DNA of 64,000 nucleotides. It comes from a virus. The position numbers and the translations under genes were made by a program. Numbering within the stretch: position 1 is the stretch's first letter; each line of letters starts with the position of its first letter. The stretch spans positions 25,128 to 89,127 of the IMG/VR virus record IMGVR_UViG_3300017917_002401. One strand, given 5' to 3'. Of this stretch, positions 3 through 11,799 are shown in pieces. Below the pieces are notes generated by a model that saw only the letters and a list, made by a program, of their open reading frames with translations, ran no database searches and had not been told where the DNA came from.

Positions 3-122
3 GAACTCTTAGACGTGAACCTAGAGCTACTAGAATCGCTGGAAAAGGTAAACAAAGGCGTACTCAAGTTAATCGAAGATAAATTGCGAGAAACTGACCC
101 TAAACCGCACCAGGCAGCGTAA
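3..122 (+). CDS. 3' end of a gene truncated by the window edge; probable A2-like DNA-binding paralog
   Basis: Hand translation ELLDVNLELLESLEKVNKGVLKLIEDKLRETDPKPHQAA* resembles the C-terminus of the ORF at 1502-1807 (ELFESLEKANHEVLEVL); followed by a terminator. Confidence 0.55.
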   Translation, partial: ELLDVNLELLESLEKVNKGVLKLIEDKLRETDPKPHQAA

Positions 123-139
123 ATTGCACTTAATTCGAC

Positions 140-175
140 AAAAGCCCACATAATTTCGGTTATGTGGGCTTTTTT
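140..175 (+). terminator. Rho-independent terminator
   Basis: AAAGCCCACATAA-tttcgg-TTATGTGGGCTTT followed by a T run. Confidence 0.85.
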
Positions 176-265
176 GCGTGTGTGTACGTGGTTTGTATAA
201 ATTGCTACAGTTTAGGAACACCGACCGTGTTTTGGCAGTTTAGGGTCAGTGTCTAGAAAAAGCAC

Positions 266-295
266 TTGACAAAACCGGTTTGGCACTGGTAAAAT
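266..295 (+). promoter_or_regulatory. sigma70-type promoter with no downstream ORF
   Basis: TTGACA-18-TAAAAT then GGCGC; close sequence relative of 2090-2118. Confidence 0.6.
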
Positions 296-340
296 GGCGC
301 AGGCCGGGTGTGGAATTTCCCATGTGGGCTTTTTTAAGGC

Positions 341-379
341 AAAACAAAGCCCCCACAGCATGCCTGCTTGGGGGCTTTG
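341..379 (-). terminator. Terminator ending the minus-strand ncRNA transcript
   Basis: Minus strand CAAAGCCCCCA...TGGGGGCTTTG-TTTT. Confidence 0.75.
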
Positions 380-620
380 AACGGATTGTGTTGTTGGGGA
401 TCCCTCCGTTTTTAGTGCTCGCTTCACGACTTACCGAGGGGCACCACCCCTGCTGACTGCATGACCCTAAACCGTGGCACCTTGGACCCCGACTAGGTTA
501 TTGGGGTTGTAGCCACTGGTAGGTGAGACTGTTTGGTTATCTGGGGCACCACCCACTGATGGAGGATTGTTAACGTACAACGCCCTAAACGACTACTTGA
601 GGTTTAACGACCACTGCAGT

Positions 621-719
621 TTAGGGTCGGGCAGGGTATACCGCACTGCCATGCTTTTAACGACTTAGGGTCGGACAGGGTATACCGCACTGCCATGCTT
701 TTAACGACTTAGGGTCGGA
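621..719. repeat. 44-bp tandem direct repeat, 2.25 copies
   Basis: TTAGGGTCGG(G/A)CAGGGTATACCGCACTGCCATGCTTTTAACGAC at 621-664 and 665-708, partial copy at 709-719. Confidence 0.95.
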
Positions 720-872
720 TTGGTAGTGGGTTATCTCCCAGGTTTCTTAAAGTCAACCACTCTAGAGCCAAGACCATTTAACGTCTGGTACCAGGTACGA
801 CGGTTCGGATATAGGCATTGCACGCCTTGGGTTACTCATTTCCAGCGGGCCGTGGCCGCGTGCTGGGTTTTC

Positions 873-981
873 ATCCAGACCCCAAGGTGTTGCTGGCTGA
901 GAAGGTGGGTCTAAGTCTTCTCGAACGCCAGCACTGCGTGCCTTGGAGTTTCGTGCCATTGCAGGCTACTCATCAGTGGAT
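873..981 (-). ncRNA. Hammerhead ribozyme (type I topology, extended stem III)
   Basis: Minus strand: stem I AUCCA (981-977)/UGGAU (877-873); core CUGAUGA (976-970); stem II GU(A)GCC-UGCAAU-GGCAC; GAAA (952-949); stem III ACUCCAAGG/CCUUGGGGU; cleavage triplet GUC (880-878). Confidence 0.85.
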
Positions 982-983
982 TT

Positions 984-1058
984 TGGTATCCGATATGGGT
1001 TACGATCCCATCTAGCCACCTTGAAAGGGTGGTGACCTCACCAGAAGTCGAATCGGAC
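984..1058 (-). tRNA. tRNA-Glu (anticodon UUC), CCA encoded
   Basis: Acceptor GUCCGAU/AUCGGAU + ACCA; anticodon arm CCACC-CUUUCAA-GGUGG; T arm AUGGG-AUCGUAA-CCCAU; 75 nt. Confidence 0.9.
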
Positions 1059-1265
1059 ATTGTAGGTTGGGCGGTGACTAGAGAATTCGGTCACCATTAA
1101 GTTGTTATCTGCCTAATTGCATACTCATAACACCCATTGATTAAAGCTGTCTCTAATCAATGGAGGCTAAGGGCTGTGGCTCGGTATTCCCCACAATTAA
1201 GACGTATCACGTAGCAGTAGTATATCGCTGTGACCGCTGTCACCCTGTCTAACTAATATATAATA

Positions 1266-1294
1266 ATTATACAGTATTTAAAGTAGTAAATCAA
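1266..1294 (-). promoter_or_regulatory. sigma70 promoter for the tRNA/ribozyme transcript
   Basis: TTGATT-17-TATAAT on the minus strand. Confidence 0.75.
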
Positions 1295-1302
1295 GAGAGA
1301 AA

Positions 1303-1436
1303 TTAGACAGGCGTTGCAATCAGACTAGCACTACAGGTGAGACGTCATTCAGTGACTGGTTTGCGTGGTAGGCTGCTGTTGCACAAGGGGCCGGCAACTC
1401 GTTTGCCATTCATTAAGGCCCTTCCCGACTGTCTAA
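1303..1436 (-). ncRNA. Candidate ~135-nt structured RNA
   Basis: Starts just after a promoter; ends pair (UUAGACAG/CUGUCUAA); internal GGGCC...GGCCC and GGCAA/UUGCC stems; no credible ORF. Confidence 0.45.
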
Positions 1437-1442
1437 GATATT

Positions 1443-1471
1443 ATTATACACTGAATGGGGTCGAAGATCAA
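1443..1471 (-). promoter_or_regulatory. sigma70 promoter
   Basis: TTGATC-17-TATAAT on the minus strand. Confidence 0.75.
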
Positions 1472-1501
1472 GTACGAATTTCCTGACCCTCAACCGCAGC
1501 A

Positions 1502-1807
1502 TCAAAGGTTAGCTGCCAAAACCTCCAGCACTTCGTGGTTGGCCTTTTCCAGAGACTCAAACAGCTCTGGGGGGACGCCACAAGCCTGTGCCAGTTTGTC
1601 CACCAGCTCACTCTTACGCACACGGGCAACACCCTTGGCACGAGTTTTGGGGGTGTACACACCCTCACGACTCAGTTTAGCAACCACGCTTCGCACCGAT
1701 TTGCCCAGCTTTTCTGCGAGCATTTCAGGGGTTGCGCCCGCCTTGTACTCGTTAACGAGTTCCAGGGTTTGGGCTTCGGTATAGTTTACAGTACGCTCAG
1801 TCATCAT
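1502..1807 (-). CDS. T5 A2-like HTH DNA-binding protein, paralog 1
   Basis: VNYTEAQT...LGKSVRSVVAKLSREGVY; AAAGGA RBS; own promoter TTGACG-17-TATAAT at 1875-1847. Confidence 0.7.
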   Translation of the reverse strand: MMTERTVNYTEAQTLELVNEYKAGATPEMLAEKLGKSVRSVVAKLSREGVYTPKTRAKGVARVRKSELVDKLAQACGVPPELFESLEKANHEVLEVLAANL

Positions 1808-1855
1808 ATGTCCTTTCAGTTGGTTTCTGCGCCGATTAAAGATTATATTATACAC

Positions 1856-1990
1856 TCACAAAGGAACATCGTCAAATTCAAAAAATTCGCTGTGACTGTT
1901 GGTAGCTTGGCGAATTTCGCGGACCTCGTGGTCTACAAATTCCGCATACCACGCTTCCTGATCAAATTTGAAAAATTCACTGTCTGCCAT
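1856..1990 (-). CDS. Small acidic protein (44 aa)
   Basis: MADSEFFKFDQE...SEFFEFDDVPL; AAGGA RBS; promoter TTGTGT-17-TATAAT at 2046-2018. Confidence 0.6.
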   Translation of the reverse strand: MADSEFFKFDQEAWYAEFVDHEVREIRQATNSHSEFFEFDDVPL

Positions 1991-2089
1991 TTGCCATTCC
2001 TTGTAATCAATATAAATATTATAGCCGAGACAACTCCACAACACAAGACCCGATTTCTGCGCGTGTGTGAACACAAATTGAAAATACAC

Positions 2090-2200
2090 TTGACAAACTA
2101 GGTTTCGCACTGTATAATGGGCGCGGCCACCATCAAGGTTTTGCACTTGAAGGTTTTGCACTGGCGCAGCGCGCTTGGTGGTGTGGTCTTTTGTTTTCAA
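2090..2200 (+). promoter_or_regulatory. sigma70 promoter followed by a hairpin and T-tract (candidate short RNA)
   Basis: TTGACA-17-TATAAT-GGGCGC; ACCATCAAG/CTTGGTGGT stem enclosing AAGGTTTTGCACT twice; TTTTGTTTT. Confidence 0.55.
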
Positions 2201-2292
2201 ATTTCAAAAAATGTGAGAATTGAATACAAAAGTAGTACGTGTTGTTTTTTAACCACAAAAGTGTAACAGTTTGTAAAATTTGCAGAAAACGC

Positions 2293-2424
2293 TTGACACG
2301 CGCGCCAATATTATGATATAATTTTGGCGCAGCCATGTAATACTTTTGTTTTCAATTTTACCTGAAAACAAAAGTATTACACCTGATTTTGGGCAAAAAT
2401 AAACCCCGATTATCTCGGGGTTTT
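2293..2424 (+). repeat. Intergenic element copy 1 (palindromic promoter + 19-bp hairpin + terminator)
   Basis: TTGACA-18-TATAAT-TTTGGCGC; hairpin 2336-2381; AAACCCCGA-TTATC-TCGGGGTTT 2401-2424. Confidence 0.9.
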
Positions 2425-2427
2425 GGT

Positions 2428-2667
2428 TTAATGATATTCTGGAGTTATAACCAGCGCCGAATCGGGAATATCTACAAAACGCTGTACAATATCAACAGGC
2501 CAGTTATAGTGATAAAAACAATCTTCGTCTAGATAATCGCCCATGCCATAAAGGGTTTTATAATATTCAGCGGCACGATCTATAATAATCGCATTAATAG
2601 AATCAATCCGCATACCATTATATTCAGGCATGAAAATGCCCAATTCAACAAAATCAAAACGAATCAT
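2428..2667 (-). CDS. Hypothetical protein
   Basis: ORF with GGAG RBS before MIRFDF. Confidence 0.6.
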   Translation of the reverse strand: MIRFDFVELGIFMPEYNGMRIDSINAIIIDRAAEYYKTLYGMGDYLDEDCFYHYNWPVDIVQRFVDIPDSALVITPEYH

Positions 2668-2715
2668 ATTATCTCCAGTTAATCGGGTTGATAATGGGGC
2701 AATATGCCCCATTAT

Positions 2716-3048
2716 TTACAGTGGCTTTGAATTAGCCAGTGCATCAAAAATCGCTTTCAGTGCCGATTTATTGGCTTTTGTCAGCGATTCAATATCATTT
2801 TCGGGCAATCGCAAAATTGCGCCGATTGCATCGGCATGAGCATCTTTTTTCACAACCGGCTCACCAGTCTTGGAAACATAAGTTTTCTTTTTGTAGACGC
2901 CTTCGCGCGACAGTTTCGCAACAACCGACCGAACAGATTTACCGACAGTTTCAGCGATTTGGTCAACACCAACACCAGCGACATAATCGGACACCATTTT
3001 AGCCGTTTGTTCTGCGGTATAATTGACAGGTTTGCTAGTCTTTTCCAT
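2716..3048 (-). CDS. T5 A2-like HTH DNA-binding protein, paralog 2
   Basis: VNYTAEQT...VGKSVRSVVAKLSREGVY...ESLTKANK; AAAGG RBS; upstream TTGACT/TATAAT promoter. Confidence 0.7.
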   Translation of the reverse strand: MEKTSKPVNYTAEQTAKMVSDYVAGVGVDQIAETVGKSVRSVVAKLSREGVYKKKTYVSKTGEPVVKKDAHADAIGAILRLPENDIESLTKANKSALKAIFDALANSKPL

Positions 3049-3130
3049 GGTATTACCTTTCAGGTTTTCCGCTTGCCCCATTGCTTGCGGTATGTGTCTA
3101 TTATAGCGGGTTTTGGGCAAAAAAGTCAAG

Positions 3131-3283
3131 TGTGCAAAAATACAACATAGGGACAAACACCTATTGACACGAGCCAAAATTATGTGGTATAATTTTGGCG
3201 CAGCCTTGTAATACTTTTGTTTTCAATTTTAATCAGAAACAAAAGTATTACACCGGGGCAAAATAAAAAGGGCCGAAGCCCTT
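3131..3283 (+). repeat. Intergenic element copy 2
   Basis: AAAAATACAACATAGGG..CCTATTGACA(3164)-18-TATAAT-TTTGGCGC; hairpin 3207-3252; terminator AAGGGC-CGAA-GCCCTT. Confidence 0.9.
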
Positions 3284-3494
3284 AAAAAAAGTTAATCAAT
3301 CCGATTACATTGGCAACAAAAAACGTGCCATTAAGTACACCAAGCGCACGATCCTTACGCTTAAAGGCCACAAAAAGCCAGCTTAGTGAACCCAAAGTAA
3401 ACAGCACATAACCAATTTGAAACATTTTGGTTGCAACAGCAAATGAACCCAAAATGCTAGTAAAAGTGCCAAACCAAGAAACAAAAGTAATCAT
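3282..3494 (-). CDS. Small membrane protein (3 hydrophobic segments)
   Basis: 70-aa hydrophobic ORF; ATGA overlap with the upstream gene. Confidence 0.7.
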   Translation of the reverse strand: MITFVSWFGTFTSILGSFAVATKMFQIGYVLFTLGSLSWLFVAFKRKDRALGVLNGTFFVANVIGLINFF

Positions 3495-3871
3495 TTTCGG
3501 GGAATCTCCATTGAATGAAATTTATCAGCGGGTAAACCGTAGTTTACCATAATTTCGCACCATTTGCTACCATGTCCACAACTTTTTTCGCTAGGCCCGA
3601 ACAAATTCCAGTCAGCCTGATGAATAATTTCATGCGGAAGTATTACATCTATCATTGTGTTAAATGTTTTGTTTCCGTGTTTGAAAAATTTGTAACCCAA
3701 TTCGATTACATTATCTTCTTGAAAACATTGCCCTGCACAACGCCAAAAGTAAGGATTCAGTTTTACTTTTGGCACATCGTATGCCATTAAAGTAGGATAA
3801 ATTTCAATAAGTGTATCCCAAATCATTACAGATTCGCGTTCGATCAGGGTTAACAGTTTTTTCTTGTCCAT
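3491..3871 (-). CDS. SprT-like zinc metalloprotease
   Basis: AGQC...ILPHEIIH...GHGSKW, the SprT HExxH + HG..W pattern. Confidence 0.8.
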   Translation of the reverse strand: MDKKKLLTLIERESVMIWDTLIEIYPTLMAYDVPKVKLNPYFWRCAGQCFQEDNVIELGYKFFKHGNKTFNTMIDVILPHEIIHQADWNLFGPSEKSCGHGSKWCEIMVNYGLPADKFHSMEIPRK

Positions 3872-3911
3872 AGCCTACATTATACACGCAAAACCAGACC
3901 ACACACGCCAA

Positions 3912-4070
3912 GTGCAAAAATACAACATAGGGGAAAACACCTATTGACACGGGCACAATTTTAATGATAAAATTGGCGCCCGGAATGTAATACTTTTGTT
4001 TTCAATTTTAATCCAAAACAAAAGTATTACATTGTGGTAAAATAAAACCCCGATTATCTCGGGGTTTTTT
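3912..4070 (+). repeat. Intergenic element copy 3
   Basis: TTGACA(3944)-18-TAAAAT-TGGCGC; hairpin 3984-4033; terminator identical to that of copy 1. Confidence 0.9.
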
Positions 4071-4323
4071 ATTTTCTTTTCGGAGCCAGTTTATAATAAA
4101 TGATAACAGCCAAAAAGATAATATTAGTTGTGTAATTAAGCAACAGCGGCAAATCCATTTTGGGCATAATATAAATAAATGTAAAGATTTCGCCAAACGA
4201 CCATAATAGCAAAAATCCCCAAGTTAATCCTGCCGATGATTTTGTTTTCCAAGATTCTATTGCCTGCGGTAATCCGCATAATGCTAGCATAATAGAGCCA
4301 AGCCAACCAATATTATCCATCAT
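4069..4323 (-). CDS. PQ-loop / SemiSWEET-like membrane protein
   Basis: IGWLGSIMLALCGLPQAIESWKTKSSAGL; three TM segments; 84 aa. Confidence 0.8.
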   Translation of the reverse strand: MMDNIGWLGSIMLALCGLPQAIESWKTKSSAGLTWGFLLLWSFGEIFTFIYIMPKMDLPLLLNYTTNIIFLAVIIYYKLAPKRK

Positions 4324-4436
4324 TTTAAAATCTCCGTTTCAGTTTGAATAATAAAAGGCTTTTTCTCAATTTCAGATTCTAGCCTTTTATCATTATATAA
4401 ATGCAAACAGAGGGCGATTATCCAAAGCGTTTTCAT
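4320..4436 (-). CDS. Small hypothetical protein (38 aa)
   Basis: Hand-translated MKTLWIIALCLHLY...; fills the gap between genes; G-rich RBS; overlaps the next start. Confidence 0.45.
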   Translation of the reverse strand: MKTLWIIALCLHLYNDKRLESEIEKKPFIIQTETEILK

Positions 4437-4452
4437 ATAATCGCCCCCGTTA

Positions 4453-5151
4453 TTATTTAGCGGTAAAATTATTTTTTACCTGAAAATCACGCCAGTTATA
4501 AGGGATGATTTTCTCGCGCCAATCGCGTTTTTTAAGAATATTAACCAAAATCGGCAATTCAAAATCTCGCGCATCTTCAAGAGCCGTATGAGGTTCGTCA
4601 ATAATTTGATTATTGATAAAACCCGCAACAATTTCGGCATTAGTTTGATAGGTCATATTGCCATTATCTGTAGCCTTATTGAATGCGTGATTTTCAAGGG
4701 CAAATTGACGATATTTGCGAGAATGGCAGATATTACCAACAGCCGCTTGCCAAAGGCAAAAACGATTATTAAACCCTGAAAGGTCAATATCAGTATTTGC
4801 ACATTTTGCAGTATCAAAAGCCAGATTATATGCGGTAAGTGTTGGATTATATTTGCCGATTGCTTGATTAAGCCATTTATTAATGGCATTAACAGAGGCA
4901 AGCAAACGTGTGCCATTATTCAACATATCATTATATTTTGCTTTTTTGGATTGTGCATATTCAAAAGACCAAATACCCTTAGCATTTTTATCATAGAATA
5001 AATCCATAGAATCAAAATGATTTTTGACCAGAACAGCGCAACTATTAAAAATCTGGCCTTCACGGTCGCAGATAATAGCGGCAAAATCAGCGACAGTATC
5101 GCCAATTGTGGTTTCAGTGTCAACGATACAGAAATATTGTTTTTTAGCCAT
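4453..5151 (-). CDS. DEDDh 3'-5' exonuclease
   Basis: Motifs DTETT, AYNLAFD, HTALEDA. Confidence 0.85.
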   Translation of the reverse strand: MAKKQYFCIVDTETTIGDTVADFAAIICDREGQIFNSCAVLVKNHFDSMDLFYDKNAKGIWSFEYAQSKKAKYNDMLNNGTRLLASVNAINKWLNQAIGKYNPTLTAYNLAFDTAKCANTDIDLSGFNNRFCLWQAAVGNICHSRKYRQFALENHAFNKATDNGNMTYQTNAEIVAGFINNQIIDEPHTALEDARDFELPILVNILKKRDWREKIIPYNWRDFQVKNNFTAK

Positions 5152-5310
5152 TTTGTTTTCAATTACCGGAAACCGCCGGAATTCGCGGATACCGCATAAC
5201 GTCTGCGGTATGAGTGTATTATAACGGGTTTTTGCCCATTGTGCCAAAATAAAGTGTAACAGTCAGACCAGATTGTTACAAATTTTTTGTTGTATTTTTC
5301 GCAAAACCCC

Positions 5311-5399
5311 TTGACACGGCCCAAAATTATATGTTATAATTTTGGCGCAAGTTTTGCAAACAAAAGTATTCATTTTTGTTTGCAAACCAAAGTGTTACA
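5311..5399 (+). repeat. Intergenic element copy 4 (variant hairpin)
   Basis: TTGACA-18-TATAAT-TTTGGCGC; TTTGCAAACAAAA/TTTTGTTTGCAAA hairpin 5353-5386. Confidence 0.85.
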
Positions 5400-5586
5400 A
5401 GTTATTTTCTTTAATAAAATCGTCAATGGCATTTTCTAGAGTTTTACCAGAATACCAATAACCGCCTATTTTATTAGAAAATATAGAATAATATGGGTCA
5501 AATTCATTTTCCTCCTCATCTTCATCTATATTATGATAATCAATTTTTAATTGATATTCTTTAATAATTGCAAAATAATCTCTCAT
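5395..5586 (-). CDS. Hypothetical acidic protein
   Basis: MRDYFAII... starts 1 nt after the upstream stop. Confidence 0.6.
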   Translation of the reverse strand: MRDYFAIIKEYQLKIDYHNIDEDEEENEFDPYYSIFSNKIGGYWYSGKTLENAIDDFIKENNL

Positions 5587-5587
5587 T

Positions 5588-6064
5588 TTAGTGGCCTTGT
5601 TTTGAGGGAACATAAACCCCACGGATATTAAACCGATCGCAAACAGCTTTCAAATATTGGACATTATCCTCATAAAATGTAAATTCAGCATTTGCAAATG
5701 GTTTCAGATTAAAGAATTTAGTTAATCCTGCGATTTTGAGTTTACCGCCTGAAATAGTATCACCATCAATACGGGAAATAATATAATCAGGTTCACCGAG
5801 AATATTGCGGATAAATGCATTATCAGCATCCCGCAAAACGCGGGCAGTAGCAATAATAACAAAACAATTTTCATCTTTTAAATCCGCTTTATATTGTTCG
5901 GCCAATGGCAGCAGAGAATCATCTTCTGCACGATATTCATTTTCGCGCCAATAGTTCAAGTCGATTCGTTCACCATTATCATCAACAATTGTACGGTAAC
6001 GGTGAAGGCTACAAACGATTGTACCATCCATGTCATAAATTGAAACCCGTTTGATCTTTGCCAT
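5588..6064 (-). CDS. HAD-superfamily phosphatase (PNK-phosphatase/nucleotidase-like)
   Basis: IYDMDGTI (motif I), ATAR (II), K (III), FYEDN (IV); GAGGA RBS. Confidence 0.85.
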   Translation of the reverse strand: MAKIKRVSIYDMDGTIVCSLHRYRTIVDDNGERIDLNYWRENEYRAEDDSLLPLAEQYKADLKDENCFVIIATARVLRDADNAFIRNILGEPDYIISRIDGDTISGGKLKIAGLTKFFNLKPFANAEFTFYEDNVQYLKAVCDRFNIRGVYVPSKQGH

Positions 6065-6132
6065 TTTGCAATCCTCTGTTTGTTGCGGTATGTCTAGATT
6101 ATACCCCAGTTTTCCCCGATTGACACACATTT

Positions 6133-6248
6133 GCGAAAATACAACATAGGGATAAACCCCTATTGACACGCCCCAAAATTATATGCTATAATTTTGGCGC
6201 AAAATTGAATACCTGAGTATTCAATTTGTTTTGCAAACAAAGGTATTA
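6133..6248 (+). repeat. Intergenic element copy 5 (variant hairpin)
   Basis: AAAATACAACATAGGGATAAACCCCTATTGACA(6163)-18-TATAAT-TTTGGCGC; AAATTGAATAC/GTATTCAATTT hairpin. Confidence 0.85.
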
Positions 6249-6578
6249 TTCTTCGTCAACGTCTGGTAAGTAAACCTCACGCAAACCAAAATGCTTTTCC
6301 ATTTTGCGCGCATATTTAATAAATTGTGGGCCGTGGGTTTCGGTTAATTTATTTTCTTCTTGCCATGCATGAATCAACTCATGGGCAACAAGTGTATCAA
6401 AATCACGGGTATTATCTTTATAAAAGATCGTGATATTATGTTCCTTTAGTTTACCCGTTTTATCTGAATATTCAGGTTCATATTCAGCATCAGCCCATTT
6501 ATTTTTACGGGTAACAATCCGCAAATTAACGGGTTTCTTCAAGCCCAAATAATGGATAAATTCATAAAGGTTTTTCAT
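6246..6578 (-). CDS. SprT-like HExxH metalloprotein
   Basis: LVAHELIHAWQ...THGPQF. Confidence 0.75.
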   Translation of the reverse strand: MKNLYEFIHYLGLKKPVNLRIVTRKNKWADAEYEPEYSDKTGKLKEHNITIFYKDNTRDFDTLVAHELIHAWQEENKLTETHGPQFIKYARKMEKHFGLREVYLPDVDEE

Positions 6579-6579
6579 A

Positions 6580-6711
6580 TCATGCCCCAGTCATCATTTG
6601 AAAATAATCATTAAATTCTTCGTCAGTCCAAACCCATGCAGGGCACATATTCATAAGCGCATCATAATATGTGCCCGACATATTCCAAACAATATAATTG
6701 TTTTTGTTCAT
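6580..6711 (-). CDS. Small hypothetical protein (43 aa)
   Basis: Hand-translated MNKNNYIVWN...; ATGA overlap with the upstream ORF. Confidence 0.5.
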   Translation of the reverse strand: MNKNNYIVWNMSGTYYDALMNMCPAWVWTDEEFNDYFQMMTGA

Positions 6712-6869
6712 CGGTCTGCAAGCCTTTTCAAAACGTCGATGTTATCCCAGAGTATAGCATAAAGCATCTCTTGGCACAAGTCGTAAAATTCTTTTTTCTC
6801 GGCATCGGTGGCCACGTCCTCACGCATGAGGCAGAGCAGGAATTGGTAACGGTCTTTGTTTGTCATCAT
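6708..6869 (-). CDS. Small hypothetical protein (53 aa)
   Basis: Hand-translated MMTNKDRYQFLLCL...VLKRLADR; directly after a TATAAT box. Confidence 0.55.
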   Translation of the reverse strand: MMTNKDRYQFLLCLMREDVATDAEKKEFYDLCQEMLYAILWDNIDVLKRLADR

Positions 6870-6909
6870 GCCTCTATTATATCACAAAACACCAGACACG
6901 CGCACGTTT

Positions 6910-7045
6910 GTAAAAATACAACATAGGGATAAACCCCTATTGACACGCGCTCCAATATTATGGTATAATATTGGCGCCTGCGCTGTAATACCTTTGTTTT
7001 CAATTTGTGTTGAAAACAAAGGTATTACAAGGGGCTTTCGCCCCT
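6910..7045 (+). repeat. Intergenic element copy 6
   Basis: TTGACA(6940)-18-TATAAT-ATTGGCGC; 20-bp hairpin 6984-7029; terminator AGGGGC-TTTC-GCCCCT. Confidence 0.9.
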
Positions 7046-7049
7046 GTAA

Positions 7050-7373
7050 TCAGGCTTTCTCAGCCTTGATAAAATCGGCAATCTTTGCCAATGCCGTTTT
7101 GTTAGCTTTGGTCAGTGATTCCGTATCGGCCTCAGTCAGGCCCAGAGCAGAACCGATGTAATCGGCCCATTCGTCTTTTTTCACAACAGCCTCACCAGTT
7201 TTAGTGGTGTAGGTTTTCTTTTTGTAAACACCCTCACGCGACAGTTTAGCAACAACAGAACGAACCGATTTGCCCAGTGTTTCAGCAATAGCCTCTACAG
7301 TCACGCCAGTGGTATAGTCTCCTACCATCTTGGCAGTTTGTTCCGGGGTGTAATTCACAGTTTTAGCAGTCAT
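7050..7373 (-). CDS. T5 A2-like HTH DNA-binding protein, paralog 3
   Basis: VNYTPEQT...LGKSVRSVVAKLSREGVY...ESLTKANK; AGGAG RBS. Confidence 0.7.
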   Translation of the reverse strand: MTAKTVNYTPEQTAKMVGDYTTGVTVEAIAETLGKSVRSVVAKLSREGVYKKKTYTTKTGEAVVKKDEWADYIGSALGLTEADTESLTKANKTALAKIADFIKAEKA

Positions 7374-7406
7374 TTAAAAATCTCCTGAAAAGTCAAGGTT
7401 AAAAAA

Positions 7407-7613
7407 TCAATCAAGTTTGTTAAGACGTTCAGCCTTATCAAGTTCCATATCATACACCATTTTAACAAGATATGCAAGCATCAAGACACAAGCGCCAATG
7501 CCTACATTCACAGGGCCAAACAGTGTAAGTAGCTTAGCGATAACAAAGCCAGATACAATGGCAGTGCCAATGAGCCAAGCAACATTAAACAGTGCAGTTT
7601 GTTTCGGGGTCAT
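7407..7613 (-). CDS. Small 2-TM membrane protein
   Basis: Two hydrophobic segments; AAGGA RBS. Confidence 0.65.
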   Translation of the reverse strand: MTPKQTALFNVAWLIGTAIVSGFVIAKLLTLFGPVNVGIGACVLMLAYLVKMVYDMELDKAERLNKLD

Positions 7614-7625
7614 GGTTTCATCCTT

Positions 7626-7718
7626 TCAAGGTTTCATCACAAAAACAAAGTATAACACAAAGGGCAAGGCAATGCAAGCGGCAAAACCCAGTGCATCAAA
7701 AAATTCTCGCTTATTCAT
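7626..7718 (-). CDS. Small membrane peptide (30 aa)
   Basis: MNKREFFDALGFAACIALPFVLYFVFVMKP with GGAG RBS. Confidence 0.5.
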   Translation of the reverse strand: MNKREFFDALGFAACIALPFVLYFVFVMKP

Positions 7719-7872
7719 ACCAAATATCTCCAACAATTTTTCCATCAACAAACACAAAATAAATTGTACAATAACCAGAACGTGCAGAATAGTTATTGTT
7801 GCCATGATGCACAACATCGTATGCGCCCATGTCACGCTTAAGAATCGCTACCAGTGCATCAACGTGTTGCAT
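7711..7872 (-). CDS. Hypothetical protein (53 aa)
   Basis: AAGGA RBS before MQHVDAL; TATAAT upstream. Confidence 0.6.
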   Translation of the reverse strand: MQHVDALVAILKRDMGAYDVVHHGNNNYSARSGYCTIYFVFVDGKIVGDIWYE

Positions 7873-8160
7873 TTGTGTTTCCTTGTTGTCCATGTGCTCA
7901 ATTATACATGGATTATGCGCTAGTGCAAGCATTTTTCTAGAATTTTTACAAATTGTTACATCTTAGCTAGTTGGTTCACAATTTACTTAGGAAACAAAAG
8001 TACACAGACCAGGGGCGGTTAGTAGACCAAAGTTTACACACATGCCTGGGGACCCACCGGCACGGAAACTATATGGGATTTTTTCAACATTCAATAAGGT
8101 GCCAAATCTGCTCAGGCACAGCCTGACCCTAAACTGCAACAAGCTATCACAAGCCGTCGT

Positions 8161-8203
8161 AACCCACCCAACCACCCCCAACCACCCCAACCACCCCCAC
8201 CCC
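8161..8203. repeat. C-rich short tandem repeat (ACCACCCC(C)A); G-runs on the minus strand
   Basis: AACCCACCCAACCACCCCCAACCACCCCAACCACCCCCACCC. Confidence 0.85.
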
Positions 8204-8225
8204 AAGCAGCCACAAAATTTTTGAC

Positions 8226-8254
8226 TTGATCCACACATCCTAACCTGTTATAAT
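8226..8254 (+). promoter_or_regulatory. Promoter of the terminase operon
   Basis: TTGATC-17-TATAAT. Confidence 0.75.
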
Positions 8255-8276
8255 TGCCCAAGAGGAGACCAATTTT

Positions 8277-8753
8277 ATGAGTACCCATTTACCTGCGGAG
8301 GTTGTCAATATCTCCCCCGAGGCACTGGAAGTGTCTAACTGCTACCTACAACTACAAGACGCCCGACAAGTAGCCGATGAATTAGGCTTACCTATTGAAC
8401 AAGTTACCGATATTCTTGGCCGTCGTGAGGTCAAGCGTTATATTGACCAAGTTTTCTTTGATACCGGCTACAACAATCGTTTTTTAATGCGTCGTGCAAT
8501 GGACGCACTTATTAAAAAGAAATTTAGTGAGCTTGATGAGTCGGATACTGGTTCGTCAAAAGACATTGCCGAATTATTGGCCATGTCGCATAAAATGTCA
8601 ATGGACCTCTTAGACCGTGAGATTCAGCTTGAGAAAATTCGTAGCGGTCCTGGTGGCCCACAGAAGCAAGTTAACGTACAAATCAACGAAGGCCTAGACG
8701 GGTCGAAATACTCGCAACTTGTACAACGCCTGGTCAGTGGAGAAGGAATTTAA
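8277..8753 (+). CDS. terS: Terminase small subunit (T5-like)
   Basis: ISPEALEV..YL N-terminal HTH; directly upstream of terL; GAGGAG RBS. Confidence 0.85.
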   Translation: MSTHLPAEVVNISPEALEVSNCYLQLQDARQVADELGLPIEQVTDILGRREVKRYIDQVFFDTGYNNRFLMRRAMDALIKKKFSELDESDTGSSKDIAELLAMSHKMSMDLLDREIQLEKIRSGPGGPQKQVNVQINEGLDGSKYSQLVQRLVSGEGI

Positions 8754-10054
8754 TGCTGCTAATATCTCGTTCGGACATAGATCGTGATGCTATAACTGAG
8801 TTTGATGCTAGTCGCCGATTTATTAAACTACCTATTGTTAACTACTTAAAGCTGCTAGATATCTGGGACACGGTAAACCGTCCACAAATGGCCCTAATCA
8901 ACGCGGTGAATTCACCCAAGTACCGTTTCATTTGCGCCGCGCTAGCGCGCCGTCTAGGAAAAACTTATATAGCCAACGTAATCGGCCAGTTAGTGACACT
9001 GGTCCCGGGGTCGAATGTACTTATTATTTCACCCAACTATAACCTTTCGTCAATTTCATTCGACTTGCAACGTAAGCTGATCCGTCACTTTGACCTAGAA
9101 GTTGCGCGCGATAACCTAAAAGATAAAATAATTGAGCTGGAAAATGGAAGTACCATTCGCATGGGTAGTTTGTCAACGGTAGATAGTTGTGTTGGTCGCA
9201 GCTACGACTTGATTATTTTTGATGAAGCTGCACTAGGTGAGGGCGGTGAGGCTGCGTTTAACGTTGCGCTACGTCCTACTCTGGACAAGCCCAATGCAAA
9301 AGCCATTTTTATTAGTACACCCCGTGGTAAGCAGAACTGGTTTAGTCAATTTTGGAATCGCGGCTTTGACCCTAACTTTCCGGAGTGGGTTAGCCTGCAA
9401 GCTGATTATACTGAAAACACTCGCATGGCTGAGTCAGACGTGGCAGAAGCTCGTCGTGCTATGTCGCGAGCAGAATTTGAGCAAGAGTACATGGCTTCGT
9501 TTACCACATATGAGGGTCAGATTTTTAATCTAGCCGAATCAGATGTAATCGAAGACTTGCCTGAACACGTTATTAGTGGCAATAGTTGTGAATACATTGC
9601 TGGTTGTGACCCTGGCTATCGCGACTATACTGCGTTTGTGGTATTAGCATATTCGTGGATTGATGACTGCTTTTATGTACTAGACGAATACTTGGATAAT
9701 GAAAAAACCACATCAGGGCATGCTGAAGAGTTTCAGAAGCTGGTAGGCAAGTGGGGTGTTGAGATTGTGTTTATTGATAGTGCTGCTGCACAGTTTGCTG
9801 CTGACCTTGCCTATACCTACAATATTGCAACAACCAAAGCCAAAAAAGATGTGCTACCTGGAATTGCTTATGCTCAAACACTTGTGGGTCAAGGTCGCCT
9901 GAAAATCGCCAAGCACTGTACTCATGTACTAGCAATGATGGATCAGTATCGCTGGGATGACAAAGAAGGGCTACAGCGTGAGCGTCCAAAACACGATGAC
10001 TATTCGCACATGGCAGACGCACTGCGATATGCTCTCTATAGTTATACCATTTAA
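8753..10054 (+). CDS. terL: Terminase large subunit
   Basis: Walker A ARRLGKT, Walker B LIIFDEAA, ISTPRG, nuclease GCDPG and HMADALRY. Confidence 0.95.
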   Translation: MLLISRSDIDRDAITEFDASRRFIKLPIVNYLKLLDIWDTVNRPQMALINAVNSPKYRFICAALARRLGKTYIANVIGQLVTLVPGSNVLIISPNYNLSSISFDLQRKLIRHFDLEVARDNLKDKIIELENGSTIRMGSLSTVDSCVGRSYDLIIFDEAALGEGGEAAFNVALRPTLDKPNAKAIFISTPRGKQNWFSQFWNRGFDPNFPEWVSLQADYTENTRMAESDVAEARRAMSRAEFEQEYMASFTTYEGQIFNLAESDVIEDLPEHVISGNSCEYIAGCDPGYRDYTAFVVLAYSWIDDCFYVLDEYLDNEKTTSGHAEEFQKLVGKWGVEIVFIDSAAAQFAADLAYTYNIATTKAKKDVLPGIAYAQTLVGQGRLKIAKHCTHVLAMMDQYRWDDKEGLQRERPKHDDYSHMADALRYALYSYTI

Positions 10055-10121
10055 TTGTTTATTTTAGCACAGTCGAACTGTGCTGTCAAGTCAACCAGTT
10101 ATGGTATAAAAAATTTTATCA

Positions 10122-10150
10122 TTGACTATTTGCTGCTCTTAGAGTATAAT
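10122..10150 (+). promoter_or_regulatory. sigma70 promoter
   Basis: TTGACT-17-TATAAT. Confidence 0.7.
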
Positions 10151-10173
10151 ACTAGGAATGCACAGGTACATGT

Positions 10174-10605
10174 ATGGCCAAAAACACCAATAAAAGAATC
10201 CCTGTAAAATGGGTTCGAGACAGGGCAAAAAAAGCCTATGAAACTCGTGACTGTTGCGATATCTGTGGAACAGATAAAGATCTGGAGCTCCACCACACAC
10301 ATTCTATCACTATTTTACTTGAATCATGGGCTACTCGTCAAGGTTACGACATTTCCACTGATGAAGGCATTTTAGCTGTTCGTGATGAGTTTATAGCGGA
10401 GCACCATAAAGAACTGTATGAAGACGTGTATACCTTGTGTAATTTCCATCACGTCAAACTACATGGTGTATATGGTAAAGCCCCGCCTCCAGGCTCTGAA
10501 TCCAAGCAAGCACGCTGGGTTGCGTTACAGCGAGAAAAGTTTCTATCGGGTGGGCGTGAAATACCACAACAAAGTCATGGTTCGTCTTTTAGTGAATTCT
10601 ACTAG
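10174..10605 (+). CDS. HNH-type (putative nicking) endonuclease
   Basis: CDIC...LELHH...TLCNFHHVKLH; same position between terminase and portal as the T5 putative nickase. Confidence 0.8.
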   Translation: MAKNTNKRIPVKWVRDRAKKAYETRDCCDICGTDKDLELHHTHSITILLESWATRQGYDISTDEGILAVRDEFIAEHHKELYEDVYTLCNFHHVKLHGVYGKAPPPGSESKQARWVALQREKFLSGGREIPQQSHGSSFSEFY

Positions 10606-10614
10606 GAACGAATA

Positions 10615-11799
10615 ATGAATTGGTTTACCAAAAGTTACGACTGGATGCGCGAAAAGCTTAATCCAGCACAAGATCGTATTGCCTATCAAGAAGGTTTGTA
10701 CATAGGCAGTACACAAAAGATTACTTACCAACAAGCTTTTCAAAAGCTTGAGGTTGTTAACCGCAGCGTATCAATGCTGGTTAACGCATGCGCTAGTCTA
10801 GACTACGATGTAAAAGACAAACAAAATGATGGAGTTGTTGTAGGTGTTCGTCAAAAGACCCTAAACAACTTACTTAATTTCAAACCAAACCCATATCAAT
10901 CAATACAAGAATTTCGTCAAGCAATTTTCCAAGACTTGGTAATTGAGGGTAACGTATTTGTTTATTTTGATGGTACTTTTATGTACCACTTGCCGGCACA
11001 AAACGTACAAATTCTAACAGATACCAAAACGTTTATCCGCGGATATCGTTACATGGGTACTATTGATTTCAAAGAAGAAGACGTATTTCACTTCCGTGAT
11101 TTACACGCACAATCTATCTACCGTGGCAGCAGCCGCTTAGAAAGTGCACAGCGTAGTATTGATATACTATACGCCATGGAAGATTTCCAGGAAAAATTCT
11201 TTGATAATGGTGCGATTTTTGGTTTAGTGCTAACAAGTGATAATACATTATCACAAGTTGCCAAAGAAAAAACAATATCCAACTGGGTACAGCGTTATAA
11301 CGCTAAGAATGGTGGCAAGCGTCCAATCATTCTTGACAGCGGTTTAAAACCTACTCAAGTTGGTCAAGGCACGTTTAAAGATCTGGACTTTGACGAGTCT
11401 ATTAAAACGCATAATGATCGTATTGCGGTAAGTGTAGGCGTTCCACCAATCCTTCTAGACGGTGGTAATAACGCTAACATTAGTCCTAACCTACGATTGT
11501 TTTATCTGGAAACTGTAATGCCAATTGTTAGAAAATATGTTTCTAGCCTTGAGCGTTATTTCGGATATGATATTGAGGCAATTACTGCTAATGTATCAGC
11601 TTTACAGCCTGATATCAAAGAAATTGCACAATATCACGCAACTCTTGTAAATGGCGGCATTATCACTCCAAATGAAGCCAGAAAAGAACTTCGTTATGAG
11701 CCTATACCGGGCAATGACGACTTAAGAGTACCTGCTAATATTGCGGGTAGTGCTGCAGATCCATCGCAAGGTGGAAAACCGCCGCAACCAAAGGAGTAA
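10615..11799 (+). CDS. Portal protein (HK97 family)
   Basis: LLNFKPNPYQ, GNVFVY, VGVPPILL, GIITPNEARKEL. Confidence 0.93.
   Translation: MNWFTKSYDWMREKLNPAQDRIAYQEGLYIGSTQKITYQQAFQKLEVVNRSVSMLVNACASLDYDVKDKQNDGVVVGVRQKTLNNLLNFKPNPYQSIQEFRQAIFQDLVIEGNVFVYFDGTFMYHLPAQNVQILTDTKTFIRGYRYMGTIDFKEEDVFHFRDLHAQSIYRGSSRLESAQRSIDILYAMEDFQEKFFDNGAIFGLVLTSDNTLSQVAKEKTISNWVQRYNAKNGGKRPIILDSGLKPTQVGQGTFKDLDFDESIKTHNDRIAVSVGVPPILLDGGNNANISPNLRLFYLETVMPIVRKYVSSLERYFGYDIEAITANVSALQPDIKEIAQYHATLVNGGIITPNEARKELRYEPIPGNDDLRVPANIAGSAADPSQGGKPPQPKE

What the first reader, a model, noticed from the sequence alone, without database searches (positions are those of the whole stretch)
873..1058. Hammerhead ribozyme directly attached to the 3' end of a phage tRNA-Glu
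Seen: on the minus strand the tRNA ends in ACCA (984). Two nt later a hammerhead begins with every core element intact: stem I AUCCA/UGGAU, CUGAUGA, stem II, GAAA, a 9-bp stem III and a GUC site predicting cleavage between 878 and 877. Stem III carries a ~50-nt structured insert (UGCUGGC/GCCAGCA, GAGAAG/CUUCUC). Known: tRNA-adjacent self-cleaving RNAs in phages are described mainly as HDV-like theta ribozymes, which cut at the tRNA 3' end. Inference: here the cut falls ~105 nt downstream. It would not mature the tRNA; it would release a downstream ~535-nt RNA with a 5'-OH and leave tRNA+ribozyme with a 2',3'-cyclic phosphate. This suggests a processing device for a polycistronic ncRNA.
Basis: partly seen in the sequence, partly recalled or inferred. 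Interest (0 to 1): 0.9.

Follow-up and report, generated by a model that had tools for sequence, protein, structure and literature searches.

The report
Hammerhead ribozyme in phage RNA operon
A genuine self-cutting hammerhead RNA sits directly behind an extra glutamate tRNA inside a gene-free, roughly 1-kb RNA operon shared by uncultured T5-like phages, where it most likely cuts the transcript into separate RNAs.

Summary
On the minus strand, tRNA-Glu(UUC) (1058-984) is followed by 2 nt and then a complete type I hammerhead (981-873). The predicted cut lies between C878 and U877. It is the only such motif in the window, and 0 of 500 shuffles gave one as good. A model built from 16 relatives, without this window, finds exactly this site (56.3 bits, E about 4e-18).

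I collected 29 distinct relatives. Most were found through an anchor that lies outside the ribozyme. All 29 keep the hammerhead, with compensatory changes in every stem (89% of cells paired against 21-44% in slid controls).

The hammerhead is the constant part and the tRNA is not:
- 10 of 29 carry a tRNA 0-6 nt upstream of the ribozyme.
- 4 carry one 81-151 nt upstream.
- 15 carry none.
- Every tRNA present is tRNA-Glu(UUC), from two sequence lineages.

The unit reads promoter, structured leader, optional tRNA-Glu, hammerhead, a 300-840-nt ORF-free RNA, then a terminator-like hairpin (found in 18 of 20 relatives). Cleavage itself is untested.

Hammerheads in phages are known. This arrangement is a new variant. 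The scan had already met this RNA family on other genomes (e1-6060701, e1-5946999).

The parts
1443..1471 (-). Promoter-like site P1 (TTGATC, 17 nt, TATAAT)
   Evidence: Consensus scan, 10 of 12 matches. This is a pattern match only.
1266..1294 (-). Promoter-like site P2 (TTGATT, 17 nt, TATAAT with TG before it)
   Evidence: Consensus scan. A similar promoter-like sequence stands at the same place in L007 and in L012.
1067..1136 (-). Conserved structured leader element: GUUAUGAG, a variable hairpin, AUAACAACUUAAU, a second hairpin, then GCCCA
   Evidence: Read. It served as the hammerhead-independent anchor that retrieved the relatives.
984..1058 (-). tRNA-Glu(UUC), a second and deviant copy (A54/U58 T-loop, U14, G1-U72, A73, encoded CCA)
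   Evidence: ARAGORN. Rfam tRNA 40.2 bits. It is 67% identical to the canonical tRNA-Glu in the phage's tRNA array.
982..983 (-). AA spacer between the CCA end and hammerhead stem I
   Evidence: The same 2-nt AA spacer occurs in L007 and L253. L230 has a 2-nt GA spacer.
873..981 (-). Type I hammerhead ribozyme, whole motif
   Evidence: Descriptor scan. Model R1 gives 56.3 bits, E about 4e-18, as the only hit in the window. Covariation.
970..976 (-). Core C3-A9 (CUGAUGA)
   Evidence: Columns invariant in 20 of 20 aligned sequences except position N7.
953..969 (-). Stem II hairpin (G10.1-C11.1, bulged A, loop UGCAAU)
   Evidence: Stem II is 17 nt long in 18 of the 20 aligned relatives. Four of its 5 pairs show changes on both sides.
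949..952 (-). G12 A13 A14 and A15.1 (GAAA)
   Evidence: Invariant in 20 of 20 aligned sequences.
879..949 (-). Stem III (9 bp) with a 53-nt extension at 940-888 forming two further helices and a loop containing ACCCA
   Evidence: All 19 relatives folded alone give the same long three-segment arm. Both extension helices covary (helices 4 and 5).
877..878 (-). Predicted cleavage site: after C17 (878), before U1.1 (877)
   Evidence: Position follows from the hammerhead consensus. Position 17 is C in 18 and A in 2 of 20 aligned relatives. Cleavage was not measured.
341..877 (-). Downstream ORF-free structured RNA of 537 nt, which would start with a 5'-OH at 877
   Evidence: It has 7, 8 and 9 stops in the three frames, and no ORF is conserved among 17 relatives. 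Conserved blocks seen.
341..375 (-). Terminator-like GC hairpin (375-349) followed by UUUGUUUU (348-341)
   Evidence: Read. A terminator-like hairpin of this kind was found in 18 of 20 relatives, with different stem sequences. The tool's own terminator scan did not list it on this strand.

Best explanation
Window 981-873 (minus strand) encodes a genuine, evolutionarily maintained type I hammerhead self-cleaving ribozyme.

It is a fixed module of an RNA-only transcription unit found in a group of uncultured phages. These phages are distantly T5-like, judged by tail-protein similarity only. The unit runs: sigma-70-like promoter(s), a structured leader, an optional tRNA-Glu(UUC), the hammerhead, a 300-840-nt ORF-free structured RNA, and a terminator-like hairpin.

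Once stems I-III are transcribed, the RNA should cut itself after C878. The upstream piece would be leader plus tRNA-Glu plus ribozyme, ending in a 2',3'-cyclic phosphate. From promoter P2 it would be roughly 390 nt. If RNase P also cuts, it would be 181 nt. The downstream piece would be a 537-nt RNA that starts with a 5'-OH at U877. It would have the same 5' end whichever of the two promoters fired.

Because a type I hammerhead stays on the 5' product, it cannot create the tRNA's CCA end. That end would still need a host endonuclease cut in the 14 nt between the CCA and stem II, which lose their stem I partner strand once the 3' product leaves.

Shown: the motif, its conservation and covariation, the optional nature of the tRNA, and the boundaries of the unit. 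Inferred: cleavage itself, the end chemistry, the host-nuclease steps, and the purpose.
For: - All core positions are present: C3-A9, G10.1-C11.1, G12-A14, A15.1-U16.1 and C17.
- It is the only descriptor hit in 64 kb on both strands. Of 500 shuffles, 4 gave any hit and 0 gave one as good.
- Relatives were retrieved through the leader, not through the ribozyme. Together with L012 there are 29 distinct members, and all 29 have the hammerhead.
- Alignment A1 (20 sequences): 89.0% of 435 cells paired, against 21.0-43.6% with partners slid. Sixteen of 22 pairs changed on both sides. None of 500 shuffles reached any measure.
- Alignment A2 (16 sequences, without the window): 86.8% paired and 24 of 30 pairs changed on both sides.
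- RNAalifold predicts the same junction by itself, and 22 of its 27 pairs are compensatory.
- Many G-U pairs (for example U-G in 12 of 20 at one stem III pair) fit an RNA read from this strand only.
- Leave-one-out test: model R1 gives one hit in the window, at 873-981 (-), 56.3 bits. The same hit came back in the genome tool.
- tRNA plus hammerhead fold side by side without competing.
- A terminator-like hairpin was found in 18 of 20 relatives. No ORF is conserved in 17 downstream RNAs.
- Fifteen of 29 members lack any tRNA yet keep the ribozyme.
Against: - No cleavage, expression or end-mapping data exist. The one full holder among public runs is a DNA pond metagenome.
- Rfam's hammerhead models stay far below threshold: 17.8 bits against 48.5 for a partial type III alignment, and nothing for type I.
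- Stem I is only 3 firm base pairs in most relatives. The two outer pairs are unpaired in 10 and 12 of 20.
- I found no stem I / loop II tertiary contact or pseudoknot. PMC3088659 (passages) describes such contacts as needed for fast cleavage at physiological Mg2+.
- The tRNA is always tRNA-Glu(UUC) (14 of 14). It comes from two sequence lineages and abuts stem I within 0-6 nt in 10 cases. That recurrence hints at a tRNA-linked role that 'optional insert' does not explain.
Confidence: 0.8

Rival explanations
1. The ribozyme serves the tRNA. tRNA-Glu and hammerhead form one functional unit. Self-cleavage gives the tRNA a fixed, structured 3' cap of about 105 nt ending in a cyclic phosphate. This cap delays or gates 3' maturation and aminoacylation, or protects the tRNA. 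It would let an extra tRNA-Glu be deployed early in infection, for example as a replacement or decoy for a host tRNA-Glu under attack.
For: - Ten of 29 members have the CCA end 0-6 nt from stem I.
- All 14 tRNAs in the slot are tRNA-Glu(UUC) (same calls).
- Two sequence lineages occupy the same slot.
- The more distant L012 keeps the tRNA-Glu-hammerhead pair although its leader differs.
- The genome already has a canonical tRNA-Glu(UUC) in its 22-tRNA array, so this copy is surplus for ordinary decoding.
Against: - Fifteen of 29 members have the hammerhead and no tRNA. Four have the tRNA 81-151 nt away.
- The cut lies 106 nt past the CCA end, so it does not make a tRNA end.
- Nothing here shows any defence system or nuclease aimed at tRNA-Glu.
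Confidence: 0.1
2. The hammerhead is a conditional or regulated ribozyme. The long conserved stem III arm (two extra helices, a 3-nt bulge, a loop with CCCA) binds a protein, another part of the transcript or a ligand. It thereby sets when the hammerhead cuts, so that cleavage is a switch and not constitutive processing.
For: - The arm is present and covaries in the relatives. Helices 4 and 5 are 80.9% and 85.3% paired, with 5 of 6 and 5 of 5 pairs changed on both sides.
- All 19 arms fold alike when folded alone.
- The loop keeps CCCA or a close variant in most relatives, and an ACCCA follows stem I.
- No ordinary stem I / loop II contact was found.
- PMC3088659 (passages) raises regulated cleavage for phage hammerheads.
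Against: - No partner sequence covaries with the loop in my by-eye comparison.
- No ligand-binding motif matched Rfam.
- L033, L068 and L252 put their large insert in stem II instead. Size alone therefore seems tolerated.
Confidence: 0.07
3. The motif is a conserved three-way-junction RNA that has lost catalysis, or a DNA-level element of a T5-type untranslated repeat region (an analogue of the injection stop signal). On this reading the hammerhead likeness has no functional meaning.
For: - There are no activity data.
- Stem I is weak in most relatives.
- T5 has conserved untranslated repeat regions, read as DNA sites, in its first-transferred DNA (10.1101/866236, passages).
- The dispersed GACCCTAA motif also occurs on both strands around this locus.
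Against: - Every catalytic core position is invariant in 20 of 20 aligned sequences while the stems vary and compensate. That is the pattern expected of an active ribozyme.
- The G-U pairs are strand-specific.
- Model R1 found nothing in T5 or in two other cultured Demerecviridae (0 of 3), so this is not the T5 repeat region itself.
Confidence: 0.03

Closest known systems
Type I hammerhead ribozymes of phages and prophages (Perreault et al. 2011, PMC3088659; passages read)
   Same: - Same catalytic core and three-stem junction.
- Same open stem I.
- Same phage setting.
- Same proposed job of cutting long phage transcripts into units.
- Model R1, built from this family, also scores ordinary gene-flanking phage hammerheads in L002, L003, L005, L006 and L022 at 26-45 bits.
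   Different: - Here the ribozyme lies inside an RNA-only unit, not between protein genes.
- Its stem III carries a conserved two-helix extension of 40-55 nt.
- Stem I is very short.
- In a third of members a tRNA's CCA end abuts it.
- In the passages I read, that paper says nothing about hammerheads next to tRNAs. The word tRNA occurs once, in its reference list. I could not open its supplementary alignments.
HDV-like theta ribozymes next to phage tRNAs (Kienbeck et al. 2024, PMC10879173; abstract and a term search)
   Same: A small self-cleaving ribozyme placed immediately 3' of a phage-encoded tRNA.
   Different: - A different ribozyme class. No HDV-type Rfam match here.
- From my recollection, not from a call: an HDV-type ribozyme cuts at its own 5' edge and so releases the tRNA 3' end. 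This hammerhead cuts at its own 3' edge, 106 nt further on, and stays attached.
- That paper's main text contains the word hammerhead 0 times.
Untranslated repeat regions and injection stop signal in the first-step-transfer DNA of T5 (Davison 2020 preprint, 10.1101/866236; passages)
   Same: A conserved ORF-free stretch of 1 kb or more, rich in repeats and palindromes. It lies among small early-type genes of a T5-like genome.
   Different: - The T5 regions are interpreted as DNA sites (DnaA boxes).
- Here promoter-like sites, a terminator-like hairpin, a tRNA and RNA-level covariation point to a transcript.
- R1 finds no hammerhead in T5.
- Only the tail protein (about 32% identity) ties this phage to Demerecviridae.
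Engineered ribozyme insulators and tRNA-ribozyme fusions used to fix RNA ends (recalled from general knowledge; no call)
   Same: A self-cleaving ribozyme gives the downstream RNA a 5' end that does not depend on the promoter or leader used.
   Different: Those are man-made. Here the arrangement is natural and conserved.

Membership tests
Hammerhead ribozyme (type I) | Conserved core: C3 U4 G5 A6 N7 G8 A9, G12 A13 A14, and H17 (not G) at the cleavage site | tested here: met
   Window 976-970, 952-950 and C878. These columns are invariant in 20 of 20 aligned relatives except N7. Position 17 is C in 18 and A in 2.
Hammerhead ribozyme (type I) | Three helices around the core, with A15.1-U16.1 and G10.1-C11.1 as the closing pairs | tested here: met
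   A-U in 20 of 20 and G-C in 18 of 20. The other two, L033 and L068, have an extra U after the core. The helices covary.
Hammerhead ribozyme (type I) | Type I topology: stems II and III closed, stem I open, cleavage at the 3' side of the motif | tested here: met
   A type III reading suggested by the partial Rfam alignment fails: no stem III can form with the tRNA 3' strand (read).
Hammerhead ribozyme (type I) | Score at or above the curated Rfam threshold for a hammerhead model | tested here: not met
   Best score is 17.8 bits against 48.5 (RF00008, partial). There is no RF00163 hit. This test is weak. The same library at gathering thresholds reported no type I hit in 12 loci. Five of those loci hold hammerheads that R1 scores at 43-64 bits (L011, L013, L016, L020, L022). 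The whole-window searches also missed this tRNA.
Hammerhead ribozyme (type I) | Tertiary contact or pseudoknot between stem I and loop II, which gives fast cleavage at physiological Mg2+ | tested here: inconclusive
   Loop II is conserved (UGCAAU or UGCAAGU), but I found no covarying partner. The feature is described in PMC3088659.
Hammerhead ribozyme (type I) | Mg2+-dependent self-cleavage giving 2',3'-cyclic phosphate and 5'-OH ends | not testable with these tools
   The public runs that hold the sequence are contigs, which cannot show RNA ends.
HDV-like theta ribozyme | HDV-type nested double-pseudoknot fold that cuts at its own 5' end, which is the tRNA 3' end | tested here: not met
   No HDV-clan match at E up to 10 in 850-1075 or in 1-2500. 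The motif after the CCA end is a hammerhead.
tRNA (the attached gene) | Cloverleaf scoring above Rfam RF00005 threshold, with anticodon and encoded CCA | tested here: met
   40.2 bits against 29. ARAGORN calls Glu(UUC). The gene deviates at U14 and A54/U58 (read).
Hammerhead-cut ncRNA operon of T5-like freshwater phages (earlier scan findings e1-6060701 and e1-5946999; not a published family) | ORF-free unit bounded by promoter and terminator, with a structured leader, a hammerhead in the middle and a conserved downstream RNA, flanked by paralogous DNA-binding genes | tested here: met
   The flanking genes at window -237..122 (+) and 1502-1855 (-) are paralogues: 41% identity over 97 aa, E 1e-17. 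Their identity with T5 A2 is not supported: tblastn of the paralogue at 2716-3177 against cultured phages found nothing.

The most novel reading that the evidence does not exclude
The whole unit is an RNA-only early operon of T5-like phages. Its hammerhead-released products would act on the host rather than in ordinary decoding. The products are a tRNA-like leader, a surplus and deviant tRNA-Glu that carries a ribozyme cap with a cyclic-phosphate end, and a 300-840-nt structured RNA with a 5'-OH. One possible role is countering a tRNA-Glu-directed or RNA-end-sensing defence. On this reading the repeated capture of tRNA-Glu, from two lineages, right at stem I is selected: the ribozyme and the tRNA work as one molecule.
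Probability: 0.15. Interest if true: 0.85.

Novelty: new variant of a known kind. Interest (0 to 1): 0.6.

Why it matters
What bacterial and phage hammerheads are for is still an open question. The 2019 review PMC6765202 says that more work is needed to define their purpose (passage).

This case has clear parts. The ribozyme is the one invariant module of a small RNA-only operon, its two products are well defined, and neither is an mRNA. The idea that it cuts a polycistronic RNA into parts can therefore be tested directly with one transcript and one core mutant.

The finding also adds a second kind of ribozyme-tRNA fusion in phages, beside the HDV-like theta ribozymes. Its geometry is the opposite: the ribozyme stays on the tRNA.

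The family is in no Rfam model. I found no paper describing it.

Tried and rejected
- **Rfam on the whole window and on 1-2500.** No usable hit. These searches missed even the tRNA, which scored 40.2 bits once only 226 nt were given. Silence from the large searches therefore says little.
- **A type III reading of the partial RF00008 alignment.** It would cut inside the tRNA acceptor stem. Rejected, because no stem III can form.
- **First pattern scan.** It returned 5 loci. Four hold ordinary phage type I hammerheads and one (L004) looks like a chance match in coding sequence. None is related to this locus.
- **First leader anchor.** I kept only loci that also had the neighbouring motifs.
- **Second leader anchor.** It gave 60 loci, with 61 matches counting the window and 50 distinct downstream sequences. 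I dropped 30 of the 50 by eye because they lacked the conserved hairpin after the anchor and looked like coding DNA.
- **The same anchor in metagenome and genome contigs.** Of 239 loci held, 15 passed my filter. Three of those were chance (L189, L366, L395) and four duplicated earlier or other members. That left 8 new members. The tallies are therefore a sample, not a census.
- **Cultured phages.** blastn of 300-1500 found only a tRNA-Glu match in one Rhodobacter phage. Model R1 found nothing in T5, Vibrio phage VspSw_1 or Pectobacterium phage DU_PP_V (0 of 3). The positive control on the window's own genome worked.
- **A2 identity of the flanking genes.** tblastn of 2716-3177 found no match in cultured phages.
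- **Polynucleotide-kinase lead at 5588-6169.** PHROG 415 at E 7e-10, but no Pfam hit and no solved-structure hit. I make no claim from it.
- **Pseudoknot or tertiary partner for loop II or for the stem III loop.** Compared by eye across relatives. Nothing covaried.
- **Public reads.** Only run X1, a DNA pond metagenome and probably the source sample, holds the stretch (share 0.97). Twenty other runs hold 5-7% of the words. I laid X21, X20, X1 and X2. All are contigs, which cannot show RNA ends or strand. In the RNA-library run X21, contigs of relatives cover the tRNA-hammerhead junction (956-1049 with 2 differences; 946-1040). This does not show transcription or cleavage. No contig piece listed in the table spans 878/877 in that run. 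I draw no conclusion from it.
- **Second hammerhead in the genome.** A very loose descriptor also flagged the window plus strand near 26505 (stems of 3, 4 and 3 bp). R1 did not report it at E up to 10. I treat it as chance.
- **Supplementary files** of PMC3088659 and PMC10879173 were closed. Their alignments might list hammerheads beside tRNAs.
Full report
**1. What is there**

Reading the minus strand gives, in order:
- tRNA-Glu(UUC) at 1058-984, ending ACCA
- two A residues (983-982)
- AUCCA (981-977)
- CUGAUGA (976-970)
- a 17-nt hairpin (969-953) closed by G-C, with one bulged A and the loop UGCAAU
- GAA (952-950)
- a 9-bp helix (949-941 with 887-879) that begins with the A15.1-U16.1 pair and holds a 53-nt insert (940-888)
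- C878
- UGGAU (877-873)

This is a complete type I hammerhead, and the cut is predicted between C878 and U877. ARAGORN calls the tRNA. The cut lies 106 nt after the tRNA, and 537 nt lie between the cut and the end of the terminator T-tract at 341.

**2. Is it more than chance?**

I wrote a hammerhead descriptor: core, G/C-closed stem II with one bulge allowed, A-U-closed stem III, H17 and stem I. On both strands of the 64-kb window it finds this site only. Of 500 dinucleotide-preserving shuffles, 4 gave any loose match and none gave stems as long as those observed. The centroid fold of 985-865 is the three-way junction. The MFE z-score is -2.6, and 6 of 200 shuffles folded as well.

Rfam was of little help:
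- The whole window gave 0 hits at gathering thresholds.
- The only hammerhead signal was a partial type III alignment of 17.8 bits against a threshold of 48.5.
- The same large searches also missed the tRNA. It scored 40.2 bits (threshold 29) once only 226 nt were submitted.
- At gathering thresholds Rfam reported no type I hammerhead in 12 loci, although five of them (L011, L013, L016, L020, L022) hold hammerheads that my model R1 later scored at 43-64 bits.

Rfam's silence is therefore not evidence against the motif.

**3. Relatives**

An exact search for the tRNA-ribozyme junction found three near-identical viral contigs (L007-L009). They carry a different tRNA-Glu, the same AA spacer, and a hammerhead whose stems differ from ours by compensatory changes.

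To avoid circularity I then searched with a conserved leader element that lies upstream of the tRNA and outside the ribozyme. After chance matches were removed (the rows dropped are listed under Tried and rejected), this gave 28 distinct members including the window. One more distant relative, L012, came from a hammerhead pattern scan. The total is 29.

All 29 have the hammerhead:
- The descriptor finds it in 17 of the 20 viral-anchor members. L178 and L183 have a bulge in stem III, and L181 is cut off by the contig end.
- Covariance model R1 matches all 12 family members that were not used to build it.

**4. Covariation**

| Alignment | Sequences | Cells paired | Slid controls | Pairs changed on both sides | Shuffles reaching observed |
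|---|---|---|---|---|---|
| A1 | 20 | 89.0% of 435 | 21.0-43.6% | 16 of 22 | 0 of 500 |
| A2 (no window, L007, L033, L068) | 16 | 86.8% of 471 | 26.4-43.5% | 24 of 30 | 0 of 500 |

- A2 also covers the two helices of the stem III extension.
- RNAalifold, with no structure given, predicts the same junction and extension. Twenty-two of its 27 pairs show compensatory change.
- The core columns are invariant in all 20 sequences of A1.
- G-U pairs are frequent, for example U-G in 12 of 20 at one stem III pair. On the other strand these would be C-A mismatches. The constraint is therefore on an RNA read from the minus strand, not on the DNA.
- As a leave-one-out test, model R1 was built from the 16 relatives. 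It gives a single hit in the window at E up to 10: 873-981 (-), 56.3 bits, E about 4e-18 with rough calibration. The genome tool reproduced it.

**5. The tRNA is an accessory, but a peculiar one**

| tRNA position among the 29 | Count | Members |
|---|---|---|
| 0-6 nt before stem I | 10 | window 2 nt, L007 2, L230 2, L253 2, L012 6; L043, L169, L129, L181 and L281 all 0 |
| 81-151 nt before stem I | 4 | L165, L175, L178, L252 |
| none (leader runs straight into the ribozyme) | 15 | |

The hammerhead therefore belongs to the operon and not to the tRNA.

All 14 tRNAs are tRNA-Glu(UUC). Among the ten that I aligned, they fall into two sequence types:
- One type has an unusual D-arm and an A54/U58 T-loop (window, L012, L043).
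- The other type is canonical. L129 and L181 are intermediate.

The window's genome record also carries 22 other tRNAs in an array about 14-26 kb away. That array includes a canonical tRNA-Glu(UUC) only 67% identical to the ribozyme-linked copy. The linked copy is thus surplus for decoding. Why the slot always holds tRNA-Glu is unexplained. It is the main observation behind the tRNA-centred rival and the novel reading.

**6. The transcription unit**

- Two promoter-like sites stand upstream on the minus strand (1471-1443 and 1294-1266). Similar promoter-like sequences occur in L007 and L012.
- A GC hairpin with a U-tract (375-341) ends the unit. A terminator-like hairpin of this kind was found 295-839 nt after the cut in 18 of 20 relatives. 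The exceptions are L021, where only 522 nt were held, and L178. The stem sequences differ while the pairing is kept.
- The downstream RNA has 7-9 stops per frame here, and no ORF is conserved among the 17 relatives compared.
- The locus is flanked on both sides by paralogues of one small DNA-binding protein family. Their equation with T5 A2 is not supported by tblastn.
- The phage is tied to T5-like phages (Demerecviridae) only by a major tail protein at about 32% identity. Related contigs of 100-114 kb are consistent with that.
- No cultured phage has this locus: blastn, and R1 on T5 and two others.

**7. How it most likely works**

Shown: the motif, its conservation, and the boundaries of the unit.

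Inferred from established hammerhead chemistry (as summarised in PMC6765202): once transcribed, the junction folds and the 2'-OH of C878 attacks the next phosphate.
- The 5' product (leader, tRNA-Glu and ribozyme) keeps a 2',3'-cyclic phosphate.
- The 3' product starts with a 5'-OH at U877.
- Stem I is only 3-5 bp, so the products should part at once.

The downstream RNA thereby gets one defined 5' end regardless of which promoter fired and of whether a tRNA lies upstream. This fits the processing role proposed for phage hammerheads in PMC3088659.

Further inference: the tRNA would still need RNase P at its 5' end. It would also need an endonuclease cut in the single-stranded 14 nt between the CCA and stem II, followed by trimming. 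The structured, cyclic-phosphate-ended ribozyme would block 3' exonucleases.

tRNA and hammerhead are predicted to fold side by side without competing.

**8. Open points against a simple picture**

- Most relatives have only three firm pairs in stem I, then a C-A mismatch.
- I found no partner for the conserved loop II, nor for the conserved CCCA-containing loop of the stem III arm. About 40% of natural hammerheads use a stem I / stem II pseudoknot, and others use loop-loop contacts (PMC3088659). A contact may therefore exist that I did not see. Alternatively the long arm may regulate cleavage.
- Three relatives (L033, L068, L252) instead carry a large insert in stem II. In L033 and L068 that insert contains the GACCCUAAACUGCAG module, which in this window lies in the downstream RNA. 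The family therefore looks modular.

**9. Comparison with what is known, and novelty**

Hammerheads in phages and prophages, often several per operon, were described in 2011 (PMC3088659). My own loci L002, L006 and L022 show 3-4 each. Ribozymes beside phage tRNAs are known for the HDV-like theta class (PMC10879173). That paper does not mention hammerheads (0 occurrences), and its geometry is the reverse.

Five full-text searches returned no paper on a hammerhead attached to a tRNA 3' end or on a hammerhead in T5-like phages. Subscription journals and supplementary files were not searchable.

Within this scan, the same RNA family was already reported on two other genomes (e1-6060701, e1-5946999). 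Hammerheads fused to the 5' side of phage tRNAs were also noted (e1-5321658, e1-5356570). I did not test those.

I class this as a new variant of a known kind. It is a type I hammerhead with a conserved extended stem III, serving as the fixed cutter of an uncatalogued RNA-only operon, and often fused to a surplus tRNA-Glu.

Noticed in passing
window 1067-1136 (-), and the same element in L007, L010, L015, L018 and others: The leader looks like a closed multi-arm fold. UGGGUG at its start can pair with CGCCCA at its end and enclose two arms. In L010, L032 and L168 the closing strand is followed by CCA and then directly by hammerhead stem I. The tRNA-less members therefore resemble a tRNA-like end fused to the ribozyme.
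   Followed up: partly
genome record G000 214-11731 (upstream of the window) and window 984-1058: The phage carries 22 further tRNAs in one array, including a canonical tRNA-Glu(UUC) and one odd call with a 4-base anticodon. The ribozyme-linked tRNA-Glu is a separate, deviant second copy (67% identity).
   Followed up: partly
L033 6413-6529, L068 8464-8602, L252 540-636; window 600-629 (-): In these three relatives the hammerhead's stem II holds a large insert and an extra U follows the core. In L033 and L068 the insert contains the GACCCUAAACUGCAG module. In this window that module lies in the downstream RNA, and as GACCCTAA it is scattered on both strands. It looks like a movable RNA module.
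   Followed up: partly
window 583-800 (-): There are two full copies and one partial copy of a 44-nt tandem repeat inside the RNA released by the cut. Another first-reader note likens it to type III antitoxin repeats. I did not test that.
   Followed up: no
window 5588-6169 (-): A 193-aa ORF matches PHROG 415, named polynucleotide kinase, at E 7e-10. It has no Pfam hit and no solved-structure hit. Such an enzyme would act on exactly the 5'-OH and cyclic-phosphate ends a hammerhead makes. The annotation is too weak to build on.
   Followed up: partly
window 3491-3871 (-) and 6246-6578 (-): Two small ORFs match the SprT-like metalloprotease family: 33.4 and 25.7 bits against a threshold of 25.6.
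   Followed up: no
window -237..122 (+), 1502-1855 (-), 2716-3177 (-), 7050-7373 (-): Four paralogues of one small DNA-binding protein, 41-74% identical to one another. Two of them bracket the RNA operon. tblastn of the 2716-3177 paralogue found no match in cultured phages.
   Followed up: partly
L002, L006, L022 (viral contigs): Each holds 3-4 ordinary type I hammerheads between genes. This is the arrangement described by Perreault et al. 2011. L019 has a twister-P5 ribozyme (44.1 bits) about 700 nt from a hammerhead-like core.
   Followed up: no
L165 11004-11098, L175 432-526: In these two relatives a conserved 95-nt segment of unknown nature separates the tRNA-Glu from the hammerhead.
   Followed up: no
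window 266-295 (+) and 2090-2118 (+): Near-consensus promoter-like sites point the opposite way at both edges of the locus.
   Followed up: no
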